From a virus (lineage: Duplodnaviria; Caudoviricetes), in IMG/VR virus record IMGVR_UViG_3300030116_002679, positions 1 to 35,176 of that record: a stretch of DNA of 35,176 nt, one strand, 5' to 3'. The translations under genes were made by a program, and so were the position numbers. Under the pieces are notes generated by a model, which ran no database searches, had not been told where the DNA came from, and saw nothing but the letters and a program-made list of their open reading frames with translations. This document shows positions 876 to 26,909 of this stretch, in pieces. The first letter of the stretch is position 1, and the number at the start of each line of letters is the position of its first letter.

Positions 876-1059
876 CTTCCTCAGTCTCAAAAACTAAAAT
901 GTGATGCTTTGGTATATAACGCACCCACTCACCCGCACGCTCCACCCGCAGCAAATCCTCCATTAACTTCAAACTGATCTTATCCCCAGCTCGCAACATA
1001 TCACCAGAATATCCGGGTACCTGAATCACTGAGCTGAAAAATACCTGACTTAATTCCAT
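766..1059 (-). CDS. Hypothetical protein (basic C-terminus overlaps the terL start)
   Basis: 97-aa ORF whose start overlaps the end of the upstream gene; fills the gap in the operon. Confidence 0.6.
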   Translation of the reverse strand: MELSQVFFSSVIQVPGYSGDMLRAGDKISLKLMEDLLRVERAGEWVRYIPKHHILVFETEEDGRKSKKASEKGSGKQSGVDAGTASAGGRGRKKKAS

Positions 1060-1646
1060 GCCATCATCCTATAAGGGTTCCATAACCATCTGATCCCCGG
1101 CCATGCACGATACAAAGCCGGTGTCCTGTGACTCATCACTACCTCATCTCCCCACAAACCCGTTTCCCGCAGCAACCACGATCCCAATCCAAAACGGCGG
1201 AATGCACTCTTGACATAAATGAAATGAAGACAGTCCACCTCGCTCACGCTGAAACCCCATACCGTGTCACGGCTGTCTGGGTCACAAATGAGCGTAATGT
1301 CGGTGAAGGGGAAAAGTTTTTTGAGGAGTGTGTCGTGGTGCCTAAGGTGGATACCCCGGGGTACGGGGCAGGGCTGGTACCCCCCTGGCCGCCGAGAACC
1401 ATCCAACTTAACTGATATATCAGATACTGACATATCAGATCTTAGGTACTGATTCCAAGGGCTGTGATCTGCTGCAGCCCGCGTCATGCAATCTAGGACT
1501 AGGCCCAGCGCCTGATCATCTGGCTCCGGGCTGCGGACTAGCACCTGGATCTGCTCGCCATCACGCCCGTCCAGGGTAACACACGGATCTGTAGACCGTG
1601 AGCCTGCTGCTGATGTCCTTGATATCATTGGCGATTCTTCTGGCAT
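1050..1646 (-). CDS. GNAT-family acetyltransferase-like protein
   Basis: LHFIYVKSAFRRFGLGSWLL matches GNAT motif A (beta strand, then the R-x-x-G-x-G acetyl-CoA loop), preceded by VWGFSV. Start codon uncertain. Confidence 0.7.
   Translation of the reverse strand: MPEESPMISRTSAAGSRSTDPCVTLDGRDGEQIQVLVRSPEPDDQALGLVLDCMTRAAADHSPWNQYLRSDMSVSDISVKLDGSRRPGGYQPCPVPRGIHLRHHDTLLKKLFPFTDITLICDPDSRDTVWGFSVSEVDCLHFIYVKSAFRRFGLGSWLLRETGLWGDEVVMSHRTPALYRAWPGIRWLWNPYRMMAWN
1352..1385. other. Candidate packaging initiation/cleavage (pac-like) site
   Basis: Perfect palindrome TACCCCGGGGTA (1352-1363) and GGTACCCCCC (1376-1385) lie at a visible switch in strand composition between terS and terL. Confidence 0.4.
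1411..1440. repeat. Tandem 15-bp repeat with palindromic cores
   Basis: ACTGATATATCAGAT then ACTGACATATCAGAT; CTGATATATCAG (1412-1423) is a perfect palindrome. Confidence 0.75.
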
Positions 1647-1654
1647 CAGCAGAA

Positions 1655-1675
1655 TTGTGAATATATTGTGAACAT
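1655..1675 (-). repeat. Pair of ATRTTCACAA motifs identical to the attP arm repeats
   Basis: TTGTGAATAT (1655-1664) and TTGTGAACAT (1666-1675), 11-bp period, directly after the terS stop codon. Confidence 0.85.
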
Positions 1676-2089
1676 TTAGTTCTCGATTTGCTGCTCGATT
1701 TCCAATCCTGCTGCGTTCAGCATCTGTGGATCTTTGCGTAGCTCATCCAACAGCTGCGAGTCTGACAGCCTGCCGAGATTGACCTGGATCTGTGACACGG
1801 CCTGGATATCATTCCACTGGTCCGGGCGGCGGTTCTTCAGATAGAACACAGCGGCCTGCGTGTTCCCGGCTTCAGCCTGCTCCACCAGCGCAGAGGTTAC
1901 GCGCCGAACTCCTTGCGCGCGCCCGCGCGATATAGATTTCTCAAGATCCTCGTAATCGGATTTCTTCTCACTGAACGTGGTAGGATGCAGCCCAATATTC
2001 CAAGCGATGTCTTGCTCGTTGAGGCCACTGGCAGCCATCTGCTCAATGTCCCGTAAGATCTCTGGGGTTGGAATCCATTTCTTAGCCAT
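1676..2089 (-). CDS. terS: Terminase small subunit-like HTH protein
   Basis: N-terminal HTH (GLNEQDIAWNIGLHPTTF) and the AAVFYLKNRRPDQW motif typical of TerS-like proteins; lies upstream of terL. Confidence 0.7.
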   Translation of the reverse strand: MAKKWIPTPEILRDIEQMAASGLNEQDIAWNIGLHPTTFSEKKSDYEDLEKSISRGRAQGVRRVTSALVEQAEAGNTQAAVFYLKNRRPDQWNDIQAVSQIQVNLGRLSDSQLLDELRKDPQMLNAAGLEIEQQIEN

Positions 2090-7123: not shown

Positions 7124-7375
7124 GTGGAAAAACTTTTAAGACTTGTTGAGTTGCGTGCAGAGATTCTGGAGCTGTTGCCTTACAAGGCTAATGTTTATCC
7201 CTATGATCCTATGACTGGTGAGTGGGGTGATGGCACTAAAATGGGCAGGGTTAGAAGGCAGATAGAAGAGCTGAAAAAACTTGGTTACAACAAAAACCGC
7301 CGCAAGGCTTTGCAGCAGATATGTCGTGAGATTGTTGCAACCTATAACGATTTAAAGAGAAAGGGCAAAATATGA
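7124..7375 (+). CDS. Hypothetical protein
   Basis: 83-aa ORF, GTG start, ATGA coupling to the integrase. Confidence 0.65.
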   Translation: MEKLLRLVELRAEILELLPYKANVYPYDPMTGEWGDGTKMGRVRRQIEELKKLGYNKNRRKALQQICREIVATYNDLKRKGKI

Positions 7376-8616
7376 AAAACCTGAAAGACCTCAAAAAGTT
7401 CAAGGGCAACCAGCGCGGTGCTGACTTCAAACTAGAGCCAGCTGGCAAGCTACGTTCTCAAACATCTGTTGAGCAGATCCGCAAGCTGCGTCCTGACCAG
7501 GTGAATGTCTTGGCTAAGATCCAAAAGCCAAATGCTAAGAAAGGCGTGTTTAAGTTTCATGTCATCTGCAGGCTTGACCAGCTGCCAGATACCGATCAGC
7601 TGACTTGGATCATTGGCAAGATACAACAGATCAAAAATGAGCAGCTCCTTAAAAATGACGCTGTGCCAGATGCTGATGCTGTGGTCACTATCAAGACCTT
7701 GATCAACAAATATAAGCTAGAGGTTCTGGTCCATAAGAAAGACGTTTGGACTGCATCGCAGCGCCTTGATTATTGGGCCGAGCAGATTGGTGATGAGGAT
7801 GTCAAGGCCCAGGATCTCCCTGCCAAGATCAGTGCCTGCAAGCGTAACCTACGCGACACTGTCAGCGGTGCGACAGTCAACAGATATCTCAGCTGCTTGT
7901 CCCAGGCATTCAGCTACGGCATCAAGGAATTATTCTGGTGTACCATTAACCCGGTCAAACTGGTTACAAAGGAAAAAGAAAACGGTGACATTAACAACTG
8001 GCTACGCGAGGACCAGCTTGCTGCACTGTTGGCCGAGGTGGAAAAGTCAGAGTCAGATCAGCTGAAAGACCTGGTCATCTTCTGTTTATCCACAGGCTGC
8101 AGAATTTCCGAGGCAAAGGGTTTGCATTGGCATGACATCGATTTTACCAGTAACAAAATCAACTTCACGCACGCCAGGCGCAGAGTTTTGGCAGCTGGAG
8201 CCACTGAGGTTGACGGAAAAGTAGAATACGATTACGTTAAGGATGCTGTTGATGAAGGTTTAAAAAACGGCAACAGCATTAAAGTTTTGGACATATCAGA
8301 ACAGCCGGAGCTGCGGCAGCTGCTGCTTGAGCGGAAACTGCGTAGTTCTACGGACCTGGTATTTCCTAACGTGGATGGCTGCAGAAAATCATGGGCTAAT
8401 GCACTGCGCCGCGCAGGCATCAAGGGTTTTAGATTCCATGATCTGCGTCATACTTGTGCCAGCTATTTGCTGCAGAGCGGCAAAAGCCTGGTATATGTAG
8501 GTGCCTATCTTGGGCATAAAGGTATCGCCAGCACTCAACGGTATGCTCATCATGCAGATGAGCTTTCCAAAGAAGCAGGCGGCATTCTCTCAAAACGTAT
8601 TTATAAGAAAGGATAA
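7372..8616 (+). CDS. int: Tyrosine recombinase/integrase
   Basis: STGCRISE (R), LKNG (K), FHDLRH (H-x-x-R), LGH and TQRYAH (catalytic Y); ATVNRYL core-binding motif. Confidence 0.96.
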   Translation: MKNLKDLKKFKGNQRGADFKLEPAGKLRSQTSVEQIRKLRPDQVNVLAKIQKPNAKKGVFKFHVICRLDQLPDTDQLTWIIGKIQQIKNEQLLKNDAVPDADAVVTIKTLINKYKLEVLVHKKDVWTASQRLDYWAEQIGDEDVKAQDLPAKISACKRNLRDTVSGATVNRYLSCLSQAFSYGIKELFWCTINPVKLVTKEKENGDINNWLREDQLAALLAEVEKSESDQLKDLVIFCLSTGCRISEAKGLHWHDIDFTSNKINFTHARRRVLAAGATEVDGKVEYDYVKDAVDEGLKNGNSIKVLDISEQPELRQLLLERKLRSSTDLVFPNVDGCRKSWANALRRAGIKGFRFHDLRHTCASYLLQSGKSLVYVGAYLGHKGIASTQRYAHHADELSKEAGGILSKRIYKKG

Positions 8617-8778: not shown

Positions 8779-9162
8779 ATGCAAGAAATAACAATTACTG
8801 CTTTACCCGTAGAAGAAGAAAAAAAGCAACTACGGAGTATCATCCACCTCCTTTTATTACATATGAAAAAACGAGATACAGAAATCGGCAAGCGGCTCAA
8901 GCTGCTGCGCCAGGAAGCCGGACTAAAGCAGGCAGACATTGCCAAGCTAGTTGGCCACTCCAATACAGCTGTAGGCCGCATCGAGCGCGGTGAACAGACT
9001 ATTGATTTAAAAACTATTTTAGCCTATAAAAAACAATTTAATGTCTCTGCAGATTACATCATTGATGGAGTCAATAATGGAAATGAAGATATTTCTGATA
9101 GGCTTAAATTTGCAGAGCAGTATATTGATAGGCTGGAAAACATTCTTAAAAATAGGACATGA
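8779..9162 (+). CDS. XRE/Cro-CI family HTH regulator (probable repressor)
   Basis: IGKRLKLLRQEAGLKQADIAKLVGHSNTAVGRIERGE...FNVSADYII. No S24 peptidase domain. The true start may be ATG 8863. Confidence 0.88.
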   Translation: MQEITITALPVEEEKKQLRSIIHLLLLHMKKRDTEIGKRLKLLRQEAGLKQADIAKLVGHSNTAVGRIERGEQTIDLKTILAYKKQFNVSADYIIDGVNNGNEDISDRLKFAEQYIDRLENILKNRT

Positions 9163-9284
9163 AAGAAACCGATCAGCGCAAAGCACTGGAGTACCTGTAC
9201 AGGCTCCGGCTGCTGCTGCGTGGAGACAAAAAGACGCTCATGGAAGAGCGAGAAAAGGAGGCCAGCGTATCCAAATCTGCGTGA
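9159..9284 (+). CDS. Small hypothetical protein (41 aa, MKETDQRKALEYLYRLRLLL...)
   Basis: Hand-translated; ATGA overlap with the repressor stop; ends immediately before the first att arm repeat. Confidence 0.55.
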   Translation: MKETDQRKALEYLYRLRLLLRGDKKTLMEEREKEASVSKSA

Positions 9285-9358
9285 AATATTCACAAGATAT
9301 TCACAATTGCCGGTACTGGCTGGATGCTGGTACCCGCAATCCGTTGCAAATACTGCAC

Positions 9359-9405
9359 GGAGATGGATGCGTCACTGGTGGGCGCCCCGGTCTTCAAAAC
9401 CGGGG
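9359..9405 (+). pseudogene. selC: 5' half of tRNA-Sec (anticodon UCA), att core; not a complete tRNA
   Basis: GGAGATGG acceptor strand, D-arm GCGTC-ACTGGTG-GGCGC, 6-bp anticodon stem CCCGGT/ACCGGG, loop CTTCAAA with TCA at 9394-9396. No variable arm, T-arm or 3' acceptor strand follows. Confidence 0.88.
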
Positions 9406-9416
9406 TGCTATAGTAA

Positions 9417-9429
9417 TATCAACAACTTA
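9417..9429 (+). promoter_or_regulatory. IHF binding site
   Basis: TATCAACAACTTA is an exact match to WATCAANNNNTTR, between the core and the right-arm repeats. Confidence 0.75.
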
Positions 9430-9492
9430 ACAGCAAAAAGTATATTCACAAATGTTCACAATTGCAGAAAATATTCACAATTATGTTCACAA

Positions 9493-9573
9493 TTAATAAC
9501 GCTTTTTCCTGCCGCGCTTCTTCTTTTTCAGGGCCTTACCTTTGCCCTTCTTCATCTTGCTTTTGTATCTCAT
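9493..9573 (-). CDS. Very basic 26-aa peptide (MRYKSKMKKGKGKALKKKKRGRKKRY)
   Basis: TGATG coupling to the endolysin stop; its stop codon abuts the last att arm repeat. Confidence 0.55.
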   Translation of the reverse strand: MRYKSKMKKGKGKALKKKKRGRKKRY

Positions 9574-10082
9574 CATTCTGGTAATCCTGGGGTGTATTTT
9601 ACTGTGCCGTTTTCATCACGGCTGGCGGTTAAAACTTTGTTTTCATTGTTGCCAGTTAGGTCATAACTAACATGGACCCATCCACTGTGCGGCCCTTTAC
9701 TTTCACGATAAAATTCAAGAATGAGCTGTGAAAATTTCAGATTGTCTCTGATCCACATAGCCAGCTCCAGGTTGCTTACCTCGACATCAAAAACCTCGAT
9801 ATCTGCAGCAGACTTATACACGTTGCCATGATCGTCTTCACTGCAGCAATGTGAACTCGTTTTTGACCCTCCCACCAAAGCATTAACCTCAGGTGAGCGG
9901 TAACAGCTGTTCACCTTAACTGGACCAAACCGATCACGCACCGGCTGCAGAACTTTCTGCGCCAGTGTCGTTATCGCTATTAGTGCTTTTTTGGGTGGCT
10001 TGTTAGAAAGCCCGTTTCTGATCGCTGTGGTGCTGGCAGTCAGTTCTTCAATCGTAAAATTCTTGCTGACTCGGACTGCCAT
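9573..10082 (-). CDS. Endolysin, peptidase M15 (D-Ala-D-Ala carboxypeptidase-like) family
   Basis: SKNFTIEEL, LQPVRDRFG, SCYRSPEVN...VGG...SSH, AADI, QLILEF, GWVHVSY (Zn ligands H, D, H). Start placed at MAVRVSKNF. Confidence 0.92.
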   Translation of the reverse strand: MAVRVSKNFTIEELTASTTAIRNGLSNKPPKKALIAITTLAQKVLQPVRDRFGPVKVNSCYRSPEVNALVGGSKTSSHCCSEDDHGNVYKSAADIEVFDVEVSNLELAMWIRDNLKFSQLILEFYRESKGPHSGWVHVSYDLTGNNENKVLTASRDENGTVKYTPGLPE

Positions 10083-10086
10083 CAGA

Positions 10087-10356
10087 TCATCCCTTGACCA
10101 GATCGAGGAGGGATTTATGGTTATGGCTACTATCATCATTAATAGCGCCATCCAGTGCCTCCCTGGCTTCTTTTGGTAGCTTATCAAGATGTTCTTCTAA
10201 GTTTTTTTCAACAAAATCAGTGGCCTTATCTTTTACGATTTCAGCCAACATGTTCCCTATCATTGGCAAAACTAAATTCAGCATGGGTTCCTTTCCTTCA
10301 GCTGTGTCCGGCGTACCGAACAGTTTTAAAAAAAAATTAAGCATTCTGTTTTTCAC
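10087..10356 (-). CDS. Hypothetical protein in lysis module
   Basis: 89-aa ORF with AAGGAGG upstream and an amphipathic segment. Confidence 0.65.
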   Translation of the reverse strand: MKNRMLNFFLKLFGTPDTAEGKEPMLNLVLPMIGNMLAEIVKDKATDFVEKNLEEHLDKLPKEAREALDGAINDDSSHNHKSLLDLVKG

Positions 10357-26688: not shown

Positions 26689-26909
26689 GAATAACTCATG
26701 TAGATTCCATGAATGGATTCCAGAATGCTCTGGGTGTTTCCAGATTTCACAGCACTCATCAGCTCTTCAGCCATTTCATGCTGCTCATCGGAATATTCCA
26801 TTTCCATTTCTTCCATTTCACTATCCATTTCATCCATGCCGCCATACATATCATCCGAGGATTTTTTCCCCTTCATGATCATGACGGCAGTTTCTTTAGG
26901 TCCATACAT
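26685..26909 (-). CDS. Acidic, Met-rich hypothetical protein
   Basis: 74 aa, GGAGG ribosome-binding site, ATGA coupling to the adaptor. Confidence 0.7.
   Translation of the reverse strand: MYGPKETAVMIMKGKKSSDDMYGGMDEMDSEMEEMEMEYSDEQHEMAEELMSAVKSGNTQSILESIHGIYMSYS

What the first reader, a model, noticed from the sequence alone, without database searches (positions are those of the whole stretch)
9286..9492. attP carries the 5' half of tRNA-Sec, so lysogeny would put host selenocysteine decoding downstream of phage sequence
Seen: 9359-9405 folds as the 5' acceptor strand, D-arm and UCA anticodon arm of a tRNA-Sec, then stops. It is flanked by arm repeats and an IHF box, and the plus-strand int-repressor unit reads into it. 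Known: most tRNA-targeting integrative elements, including the enterobacterial selC islands, carry the 3' part and leave the host promoter in charge; 5'-restoring elements are the minority. Inference: after crossover near the anticodon loop, the host promoter drives a truncated RNA. The intact selC (phage 5' half plus host 3' half) is then transcribed from the prophage. Because selC is normally single copy, the prophage could control host selenoprotein synthesis, or gain protection from deletion.
Basis: partly seen in the sequence, partly recalled or inferred. Interest (0 to 1): 0.9.

Follow-up and report, generated by a model that had tools for sequence, protein, structure and literature searches.

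The report
SAR324 phage supplies tRNA-Sec front half
This marine phage carries the front half of the selenocysteine tRNA gene of SAR324 bacteria in what is very likely its integration site, so an infected cell's repaired tRNA gene would sit behind phage DNA (a rare but known arrangement), and the phage also keeps a second half-copy of that site beside its DNA-packaging gene that its integrase likely binds.

Summary
Observation confirmed. Window 9357-9402 is identical to the selC of a SAR324 lineage and lies in a lambda-type attP: inverted core around the anticodon loop, 2+4 arm repeats, IHF box, intact tyrosine integrase upstream. Marine metagenomes hold all four forms: 49 attB, 10 attP-like, 10 attL and 22 attR among 116 hits. 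Most junctions come from related island elements; one attL and one attR are of this phage's type, none of this exact phage. The geometry is known: pelagiphages restore 5' tRNA ends, as do 159 of 3919 Islander islands. Prophage control of selenoprotein synthesis is unshown, and decayed elements argue against protection from deletion. The stronger new feature lies outside the finding: a half-site beside terS (arm pair 1655-1675, core-like repeat 1578-1604, different 7-bp spacer). Its arm motif matches each phage's own attP in 7 of 8 records and tracks the integrase N-domain, not TerS, repressor or the Xis-like protein. It is likely integrase-bound; I favour self-recombination (0.4) over docking (0.3). 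The scan noted both features before on other DNA (e1-5870914, e1-6284801, e1-9720072).

The parts
9359..9402 (+). 5' half of tRNA-Sec (acceptor 5' strand, D-arm, anticodon arm; anticodon TCA 9394-9396); identity to SAR324 selC runs 9357-9402
9382..9408 (.). attP core: 10-bp inverted repeats (9 of 10 pairs) around the 7-bp anticodon loop 9392-9398, the inferred strand-exchange overlap
   Evidence: junction edges
9286..9306 (+). left pair of arm-type repeats (ATRTTCACAA), starting at the stop codon of the 41-aa ORF
9442..9492 (+). four right arm-type repeats (9442, 9452, 9471, 9483)
9417..9429 (+). IHF consensus site (consensus recalled), kept at this position in relatives
9337..9349 (-). degenerate IHF-like site on the left arm (2 mismatches, read from the sequence; closer to consensus in L191-type relatives)
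9306..9340 (+). hairpin upstream of the tRNA half, no U-tract; G-U pairs and two pairs with changes on both sides among 4 close relatives
   Evidence: z -3.4 on +, -3.0 on -
7372..8616 (+). tyrosine integrase, 414 aa; R244 K298 H356 R359 Y391 invariant in 24 of 24 aligned homologs; hypervariable three-strand N-domain (residues 20-72)
8779..9162 (+). HTH_3 repressor-like gene
9159..9284 (+). 41-aa ORF, kept in 4 close relatives at 83-95% identity; last gene before attP
7124..7375 (+). 83-aa ORF upstream of int, no family match
1655..1675 (-). second-site pair of arm-type repeats directly after the terS stop codon; motif matches each phage's own attP arms
1578..1604 (-). second-site core-like inverted repeat with a 7-bp spacer (1588-1594) matching the attP overlap at 5 of 7; spacer starts 81 nt from the first arm copy
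1676..2089 (-). terminase small subunit
   Evidence: phrog_309, E 2e-22
1050..1646 (-). 198-aa ORF between terS and terL, no family match; its predicted N-terminus overlaps the second-site core
9573..10187 (-). endolysin, last late gene, converging on attP

Best explanation
The stretch 9286-9492 is very likely the attP of a temperate SAR324 phage whose tyrosine integrase likely crosses over in the anticodon loop of the host tRNA-Sec gene, so that the phage-borne 5' half would rebuild selC at attR, where it would likely be transcribed by read-through from the prophage's repressor unit rather than from the host promoter. Shown: 46-bp identity to SAR324 selC, att anatomy, and attL and attR forms at this gene in natural DNA. 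Inferred: exact crossover, IHF use, read-through and processing of the tRNA from the repressor-orf41 transcript (about 0.6). I read this as passive coupling that keeps selC on in a lysogen, not as a regulatory switch. The same integrase likely also binds a second half-site beside terS (arm pair, bend site, core-like repeat with a different spacer; binding about 0.85). Its most likely job (0.4) is recombination between two copies of itself, to circularise terminally redundant DNA or resolve dimers, with the spacer mismatch insulating it from attP and attB.
For: Host match: L218, L247, L264, L275 carry the full gene; 3 of 4 L218 neighbour proteins looked up are identical to proteins that NCBI names SAR324, the fourth is named Deltaproteobacteria. 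The 20-mer at the tRNA start recurs in 8 other viral contigs with unrelated arm motifs and integrases 43-48% identical. Junction classes among 116 metagenome hits: 49 host+full, 10 element+arm, 10 host+arm, 22 element+full. L309 joins the L218-type host flank to a phage-type right arm; L219 joins a phage-type left flank to a full gene. Full integrase homologs lie co-oriented directly upstream of intact selC in L246 and L277 (39%, 35%). The anticodon loop is intact in 22 of 22 attR and 49 of 49 attB copies but damaged in 2 of 10 attL copies; an attL half is heavily decayed in L248. A TGGAC(A/T)-17-CAnAAT-like motif precedes host selC and stays at attL. No + strand terminator-like site lies between int and the tRNA half. 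Second site: own-arm match in 7 of 8 records, top-scoring pair outside att in each; 12 of 13 further terS regions match one of 14 arm sets; core-like pattern at 81-82 nt in 18 of 20 records against 0.03 expected per 140 nt. Integrase residues 20-72 are 45-46% identical in two pairs whose residues 106-414 are 97% and 92% identical and whose motifs differ. TerS, repressor and HTH_17 helices are decoupled from the motif.
Against: No junction of this exact phage and no full prophage was seen; most attL/attR rows belong to related island elements in other SAR324 lineages, the classes rest on my own flank patterns, and rows are redundant across samples. No promoter was located for the restored gene; the only nearby sigma-70-like hit (9125-9153) is at chance level (8 found, 4.1 expected). 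In L201, L231, L239 and L252 both the host promoter and the integrase unit are gone, so selC there needs some other promoter, which weakens dependence on the repressor unit. Sec use by the host is unverified, and Peng 2016 (PMC5029168, Table 1) lists two SAR324 single-cell genomes as orphan-SelD. For the second site: L322 and L325 have lost the core and part of the pair yet L325 is a near-complete genome, so it is dispensable there; L327 does not match (contig end); the window, L315, L325 and L326 lack an IHF match at 1 mismatch; the core overlaps Arg-x3-Pro codons of orf198; the phage also encodes RecT-like and exonuclease genes that could circularise DNA; the fold match of the N-domain is weak (Z 4.7).
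Confidence: 0.75

Rival explanations
1. One reading: the prophage regulates host selenoprotein synthesis through the restored selC, or is protected from deletion by it.
For: The geometry removes selC from its host promoter-like motif. Arm sites and a conserved hairpin lie between the repressor unit and the tRNA, so bound Int could modulate read-through.
Against: Elements at this site have decayed: a 90-aa integrase remnant in L234, none detected in L237 or L254, about 1.07 kb of foreign DNA in L201-type contigs, a short phage-type scar in L219, all with intact selC. No expression data. Host Sec machinery unverified.
Confidence: 0.15
2. The restored selC has its own promoter in the left arm of attP, so it is independent of the int-repressor unit.
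For: selC stays intact behind element flanks after the element's genes are lost; Fionnbharth supplies its tRNA with its own promoter (PMC10865867).
Against: No sigma-70-like site within 200 nt upstream of 9359; the conserved left-flank bases read as an IHF-like site.
Confidence: 0.25
3. The second site is a docking site only: Int bound there gates transcription of orf198-terL and the virion genes, or shields the packaging start until the prophage has excised.
For: The pair lies in the short gap before the first late gene, oriented with transcription, about 8 nt before the start codon in several phages. Int represses transcription from arm sites in KplE1 (PMC2951348). Rapid change of the motif fits an immunity-like role (inference). 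The spacer differs from the attP overlap.
Against: A docking or roadblock role does not need a core-like inverted repeat with exact 7-bp spacing at a fixed distance, kept in 18 of 20 records and following the clade's own core. Promoter-like sites there are at chance level.
Confidence: 0.3
4. The second site recombines with attP (inverting the 7.7-kb early region) or with a second chromosomal target or satellite.
For: It faces attP in inverted orientation; spacers agree at 5 of 7; sequence right of the core is replaced in L320 and L321 and brings another tandem pair.
Against: All records holding both int and terS show the same arrangement (9 loci plus the window). Lambda-type integrases need matching overlaps (recalled).
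Confidence: 0.12
5. The repeats are bound by another protein (TerS, repressor or the Xis-like HTH_17 protein), not by Int.
For: TerS differs between the window and L315 almost only in its helix-turn-helix.
Against: L333 and L336 share the motif but not the TerS helix; L317 and L333 share nearly the same helix but not the motif. HTH_17 is identical in L332, L335 and L336, which have three motifs; the repressor helix is the same in L317, L335 and L336, and in the window and L224. Integrase strand segments track motif halves in a 2x2 pattern.
Confidence: 0.07

Closest known systems
Temperate pelagiphages HTVC021P/022P/121P/201P (tRNA-Cys), HTVC105P/109P (tRNA-Leu), HTVC120P (tRNA-Arg), HTVC028P (tRNA-Asn); 10.1101/410191 and PMC8477408, passages read
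   Same: Marine phage, tyrosine integrase, attP downstream of int, phage 5' tRNA piece rebuilds the host gene; for HTVC028P a 40-bp core with attL/attR shown by PCR.
   Different: Host is SAR324, target is tRNA-Sec, a repressor-like gene and a small ORF lie between int and attP. The passages read do not mention promoters (0 occurrences in both papers) or a second site.
Islander islands with a 5' tDNA fragment (159 of 3919; anticodon-centred site A in 2083; PMC4383910 Table 1) and the SIT shape of Panis 2010 (SIT plus OD under 8% of 1273; PMC2951348)
   Same: Same minority geometry and same anticodon-loop crossover class.
   Different: Whether any of the 159 is selC was not checked; SAR324 is not mentioned in the parts read.
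selC-targeting elements with a 3' fragment: Pf-tRNA-Sec prophages of Pseudomonas aeruginosa (27-bp 3' piece; PMC7549136, passages) and enterobacterial selC islands (recalled)
   Same: Same target gene, tyrosine integrases.
   Different: They keep the host promoter on the intact gene. SAR324 selC is also hit at its 3' end by DUF6538-type integrases, so it is used from both sides.
tRNA-dependent lysogeny (Fionnbharth and others; PMC10865867, abstract and passages)
   Same: The lysogen's tRNA function depends on phage sequence.
   Different: There the core is about 10 bp and the phage encodes a whole tRNA with its own promoter; here a 46-bp shared piece rebuilds the gene and no whole tRNA is encoded.
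Lambda Int attL-type half-sites and P1 loxP/Cre beside the packaging start (both recalled, no paper read); KplE1 IntS autorepression from arm sites (PMC2951348)
   Same: Arm pair + bend site + core is the make-up of a lambda half-site; a recombination site just downstream of terS would fall in the terminal redundancy of headful DNA, as loxP does in P1.
   Different: P1 uses a separate simple recombinase; KplE1's regulatory arm sites are inside attL. Here one arm-binding integrase appears to serve two sites 7.7 kb apart with different spacers and a shared, fast-changing arm motif.

Membership tests
Lambda-type (heterobivalent) tyrosine integrase attP | Integrase with R-K-H-R-H/W-Y catalytic set | tested here: met
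   PF00589 E 6e-24; R244 K298 H356 R359 Y391 invariant in 24 of 24; model matches Tn1549 and lambda Int, E 2e-9 to 5e-9
Lambda-type (heterobivalent) tyrosine integrase attP | N-terminal three-strand arm-binding domain | tested here: inconclusive
   Model has 3 strands and a long helix; top VIA hit is the HPI integrase arm-type binding domain 3jtz_A, Z 4.7, rmsd 3.4, 69 aligned, tied within 1 with unrelated rows; Foldseek gave no match at E 0.001; co-variation with the motif supports it
Lambda-type (heterobivalent) tyrosine integrase attP | Inverted core sites around a 7-bp overlap shared with the host | tested here: met
   9382-9391 / 9399-9408 around 9392-9398; same left site and overlap in host L218
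Lambda-type (heterobivalent) tyrosine integrase attP | Arm repeats on both sides and IHF-type bend sites | tested here: met
   2+4 copies in the window and in 12 of 14 att sets (6 copies; L230 gave 5, L212 gave 4); IHF consensus 9417-9429
Lambda-type (heterobivalent) tyrosine integrase attP | Recombination attP x attB by Int | not testable with these tools
   needs assay; natural junctions of relatives only
5'-restoring tRNA-targeting element | attP holds the 5' tRNA part; intact gene at the element-proximal junction, 5' fragment upstream | tested here: met
   L234, L237, L254 hold 5' fragment, element and intact selC in that order; for the phage type only separate junctions L309 and L219
tRNA-dependent lysogeny | Short core that fails to rebuild the tRNA, plus a whole phage tRNA gene | tested here: not met
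   46-bp identity from before +1; no whole tRNA in the window; the record lacks about 0.84 kb inside terL
Functional bacterial tRNA-Sec target | Full gene passes Rfam RF01852 with UCA anticodon | tested here: met
   L218 64.5 and L219 64.3 bits against gathering 47; the acceptor stem folds as 7 pairs plus an unpaired G/A position
Functional bacterial tRNA-Sec target | Host encodes SelA, SelB and selenoproteins | not testable with these tools
   no SAR324 genome handle could be reached; literature hit lists two SAR324 single-cell genomes as orphan-SelD
P1 loxP-like circularisation site | Site lies in the terminal redundancy just after pac and recombines with its own copy | not testable with these tools
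   position just after terS is shown; pac, genome ends and recombination are not

The most novel reading that the evidence does not exclude
One integrase, two insulated sites: the same enzyme integrates the phage into the SAR324 selenocysteine tRNA gene, leaving the cell's selC co-transcribed with the phage repressor, and uses a second half-site with a different spacer beside terS to circularise or monomerise packaged DNA. All eight arm sites and the integrase's N-terminal strands switch specificity together by a modular code, which works as a private address among phages and islands competing for the same tRNA gene.
Probability: 0.3. Interest if true: 0.82.

Novelty: new variant of a known kind. 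Interest (0 to 1): 0.6.

Why it matters
It names a host (SAR324, an abundant, largely uncultured marine lineage) and an exact attachment gene for a family of unclassified marine phages. It shows that SAR324 selC is a hotspot where 22 of 71 full copies with a host-type or element-type left flank sit behind element DNA, which makes the open question of who transcribes a 5'-restored tRNA testable. The family also offers a natural series of matched integrase N-domains and arm motifs (at least 12 distinct att motif sets), useful for reading or engineering arm-site specificity. If the terS half-site recombines, an integrating phage would be using one heterobivalent integrase for both integration and genome circularisation, which I did not find described in ten literature searches.

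Tried and rejected
GTDB scan with a 29-mer ending at 9403: 108 full tRNA-Sec-like genes, by their record titles mostly Actinomycetota and Geobacteraceae, none the host, because the host differs at 9403. A 31-mer in viral contigs found 0 for the same kind of reason. Single-protein integrase scan of viral contigs found no relative; the alignment scan stopped at 11 of 64 parts. Cultured phages: best 29% identity, no close relative. Junctions of this exact phage: none in 4 runs laid on the window and none in 4 runs laid on host locus L218, which showed only the unintegrated form; contigs drop rare variants, so this is not absence. No RNA holder was listed. SAR324 genomes could not be reached, so SelA/SelB and selC copy number were not tested. 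TerS as binder of the repeats: suggested, rejected. Repressor and HTH_17 as binders: rejected. One search held one misplaced row (L217) and was redone; alignment A6 held one misframed row (L246) and was redone as A7. Foldseek on the N-domain gave no match at E 0.001. Promoter scans around terS and in L201 were at chance level. Tycheposon preprint and Mukai 2017 passages do not mention SAR324; PMC11769102 passages did not cover P1 circularisation. Literature searches (listings only unless cited); none listed a SAR324 selC prophage or a terS-adjacent integrase half-site. The library lacks most subscription papers and no supplements were consulted; Islander's island list and the pelagiphage supplements may bear on whether 5'-restored selC is already on record.

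Full report
Setting. The window is a whole marine virus record of 35,176 bases, classed linear and 98% complete; by comparison with L315 it lacks about 0.84 kb inside terL. Nearly all genes run on the minus strand (recombination, replication, terS, terL, portal, capsid, endolysin). Only an 83-aa ORF, int, a repressor-like gene and a 41-aa ORF run on the plus strand, ending at 9284. No cultured phage is close (best integrase match 29%).

Observation. Rfam tRNA-Sec aligns from 9359 through the anticodon arm and then fails. Six arm-type repeats flank it (2 left, 4 right), an exact IHF consensus (motif recalled) lies at 9417-9429, and 10-bp inverted repeats enclose the 7-nt anticodon loop 9392-9398. 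The integrase keeps its catalytic residues in 24 of 24 aligned homologs and folds like lambda and Tn1549 integrases. The first 20 bases of the tRNA recur in 8 other viral contigs, each with a half tRNA and its own arm motif; the 6 of these that include int encode homologs 43-48% identical.

Host and junctions. A metagenome scan with that 20-mer gave 115 loci. After dropping two duplicate loci of the same contigs (L233, L236), 116 occurrences remained. By flank patterns of my own: 49 host flank + full gene, 10 element flank + element arm (9 phage attP and the decayed L269), 10 host flank + element arm, 22 element flank + full gene (plus 1 cut and 4 at contig ends), 6 full genes behind a perfect sigma-70 consensus, 2 other, 9 with too short a flank, 3 not tRNA. 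Rows are redundant across samples. The window is identical over 9357-9402 to L218, whose gene scores 64.5 bits and whose neighbours are identical to proteins named SAR324 (3 of 4). Neighbours of L254, L237 and L275 fall in clusters with SAR324-named members. L309 joins the L218-type host flank and 5' half to a phage-type right arm; L219 joins a short phage-type left flank to a full gene (read by eye). Neither runs on into phage genes, so both look like scars. L234, L237 and L254 hold 5' half, 1.8 to 5.4 kb of cargo and intact selC on one contig; L246 and L277 have a full integrase homolog directly upstream of intact selC. In several attL copies the base right after the loop already differs from the host, which bounds the crossover on the right; the left bound is inferred from core symmetry. 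No junction of this exact phage was seen in 8 runs laid.

Who transcribes the restored gene. Host selC is preceded by a TGGAC(A/T)-17-CAnAAT-like motif in many lineages, and this motif stays at attL; that it is the promoter is inference. In a prophage it would point into the late genes on the antisense strand. The only sense transcription upstream of attR is the orf83-int-repressor-orf41 unit; no terminator-like site lies between it and the tRNA, and no promoter-like site above chance. A hairpin at 9306-9340 is kept in 4 close relatives with G-U pairs and two double changes and folds slightly better on the plus strand, a weak sign that this strand is transcribed. Restored copies look maintained: the anticodon loop is intact in 22 of 22 attR copies, damaged in 2 of 10 attL copies (the scan misses copies decayed in the first 20 bases, such as the attL of L248). 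I infer read-through from the repressor unit (0.6). Whether this host makes selenoproteins was not testable; Peng 2016 lists two SAR324 single-cell genomes as orphan-SelD (PMC5029168, passages), which may reflect incomplete genomes.

A second site beside terS. Two more exact arm repeats follow the terS stop codon at 1655-1675. In 7 of 8 records that hold both places, the pair after terS scores best against that record's own attP arm matrix (21-35 bits, best elsewhere 11-18); L336 and L337 are near-duplicates, and the miss, L327, ends there. Of 13 further terS regions, 12 match one of 14 att arm sets at 21 bits or more. A sister clade (integrase 31% identical) carries the reversed 3' half of a tRNA with a CAT anticodon, read from the sequence, with the same 2+4 arms and the same second site, so 5' versus 3' restoration is a matter of orientation within one architecture. 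An earlier scan note (e1-6284801) led me to look for the rest of a half-site. A core-like inverted repeat with a 7-bp spacer starts 81-82 nt from the first arm copy in 18 of 20 records (0.03 expected per 140 nt); its halves follow each clade's own att core, and its spacer differs from the att overlap (5 of 7 in the window). The pattern was derived from these same loci, so the count is descriptive; the fixed distance is the independent part. An IHF match at 1 mismatch or fewer lies at a fixed offset in 10 of 14 records, not in the window. The core overlaps the predicted start of orf198, where three unrelated peptides share only Arg and Pro, written with the same codons. L322 and L325 have lost the core; L320 and L321 have other sequence right of it.

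Which protein reads the motif. Integrase residues 20-72 are 45% and 46% identical in the pairs window/L230 and L191/L192, whose residues 106-414 are 97% and 92% identical and whose motifs differ. In the sister clade two strand segments track two parts of the motif in a 2x2 pattern across L317, L330/L332, L335 and L336 (few cases, and the motifs of L332 and L335 are known only from the terS pair). The variable residues lie in and between three predicted strands; the best structural match is an integrase arm-binding domain, weak at Z 4.7, and Foldseek found none. TerS looked like a candidate but its helix is decoupled from the motif, as are the repressor and HTH_17 helices.

Mechanism. Shown: the sequence anatomy, host identity, natural junction forms, co-variation. 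Inferred: Int with IHF recombines attP x attB in the anticodon loop (0.9); the rebuilt selC is cut from a repressor-unit transcript (0.6); Int binds the second site (0.85). For its job I commit to self-recombination that circularises terminally redundant DNA or resolves dimers (0.4), by analogy to P1 loxP and lambda attL x attL reactions (both recalled); docking that gates late genes or packaging is close behind (0.3; precedent for repression from arm sites in PMC2951348, abstract and passages).

Comparison and novelty. 5' restoration is rare but known: 159 of 3919 islands (PMC4383910, parts 1-2 of 3 read), SIT plus OD shapes under 8%, and several pelagiphages with verified junctions (10.1101/410191 and PMC8477408, passages). 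The selC elements I could check carry the 3' piece (PMC7549136, passages). It is not tRNA-dependent lysogeny (PMC10865867, abstract and passages). Ten searches listed no SAR324 selC prophage and no terS-adjacent half-site; supplements were not consulted. The scan noted a 5'-half tRNA-Sec attP and integrase sites beside terminase genes on other genomes; these are unchecked notes, not support. Verdict: new variant of a known kind, interest 0.6.

Noticed in passing
L249, L260, L272, L283, L286, L289 (upstream of the tRNA match); L281: Six contigs carry a complete tRNA-Sec variant behind a perfect TTGACA-17-TATAAT promoter; L249 and L272 pass the Rfam gathering score, and neighbours include ribosomal protein S21 and a homing endonuclease, which suggests large phages encoding a whole tRNA-Sec. 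L281 has a similar gene beside a phage DNA-binding gene.
   Followed up: partly
L234:281-2210, L237:98-4196, L254:8001-13529: Integrase-less or near integrase-less cargo cassettes between attL and attR at SAR324 selC: a reductive-dehalogenase-like Fe-S protein, an amidohydrolase plus FAD oxidoreductase, an amino-acid ABC transporter unit.
   Followed up: partly
L201:8172-9998, L234:2313-4127, L263:164-2002; L218:1023-1054: A second integrase family (about 605 aa, DUF6538 + PF00589) sits just 3' of selC with GGGGTAC-type repeats, and contigs in 3 runs carry a 32-bp 3' piece of selC, so the gene is targeted from both ends.
   Followed up: partly
L321, L322, L325 just after the terS site; L320 similar: These phages carry a tandem GGGGTACA pair like the repeats beside the 3'-side chromosomal integrases, inserted after or replacing their own second-site core; possibly a binding site for a resident island integrase.
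   Followed up: no
window 1676-2089 against L315:3936-4349: TerS differs almost only in its helix-turn-helix (residues 34-52) and varies independently of the arm motif across relatives, suggesting separate diversification of packaging-site recognition.
   Followed up: partly
L212 around 1381-1400: Left arms read one motif and right arms another, either a recombinant attP from tandem prophages or an assembly chimera.
   Followed up: no
L218:1027-1125: SAR324 tRNA-Sec folds with a 7-pair acceptor stem plus an unpaired G/A position rather than the 8 pairs seen in the Geobacter gene.
   Followed up: no
window 1050-1646: The 198-aa ORF between terS and terL has no Pfam or PHROG match but holds a stretch that looks like a GNAT acetyl-CoA motif (recalled, untested).
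   Followed up: no
L318, L339, L342, L344, L346, L350: 6 of 27 orf198 loci begin within 300 nt upstream of that gene, which may reflect a packaging start or just polymorphism that breaks assemblies.
   Followed up: no
window 26743-26814 (-): Weak Rfam fluoride riboswitch match, 21 bits against gathering 34, probably chance.
   Followed up: no
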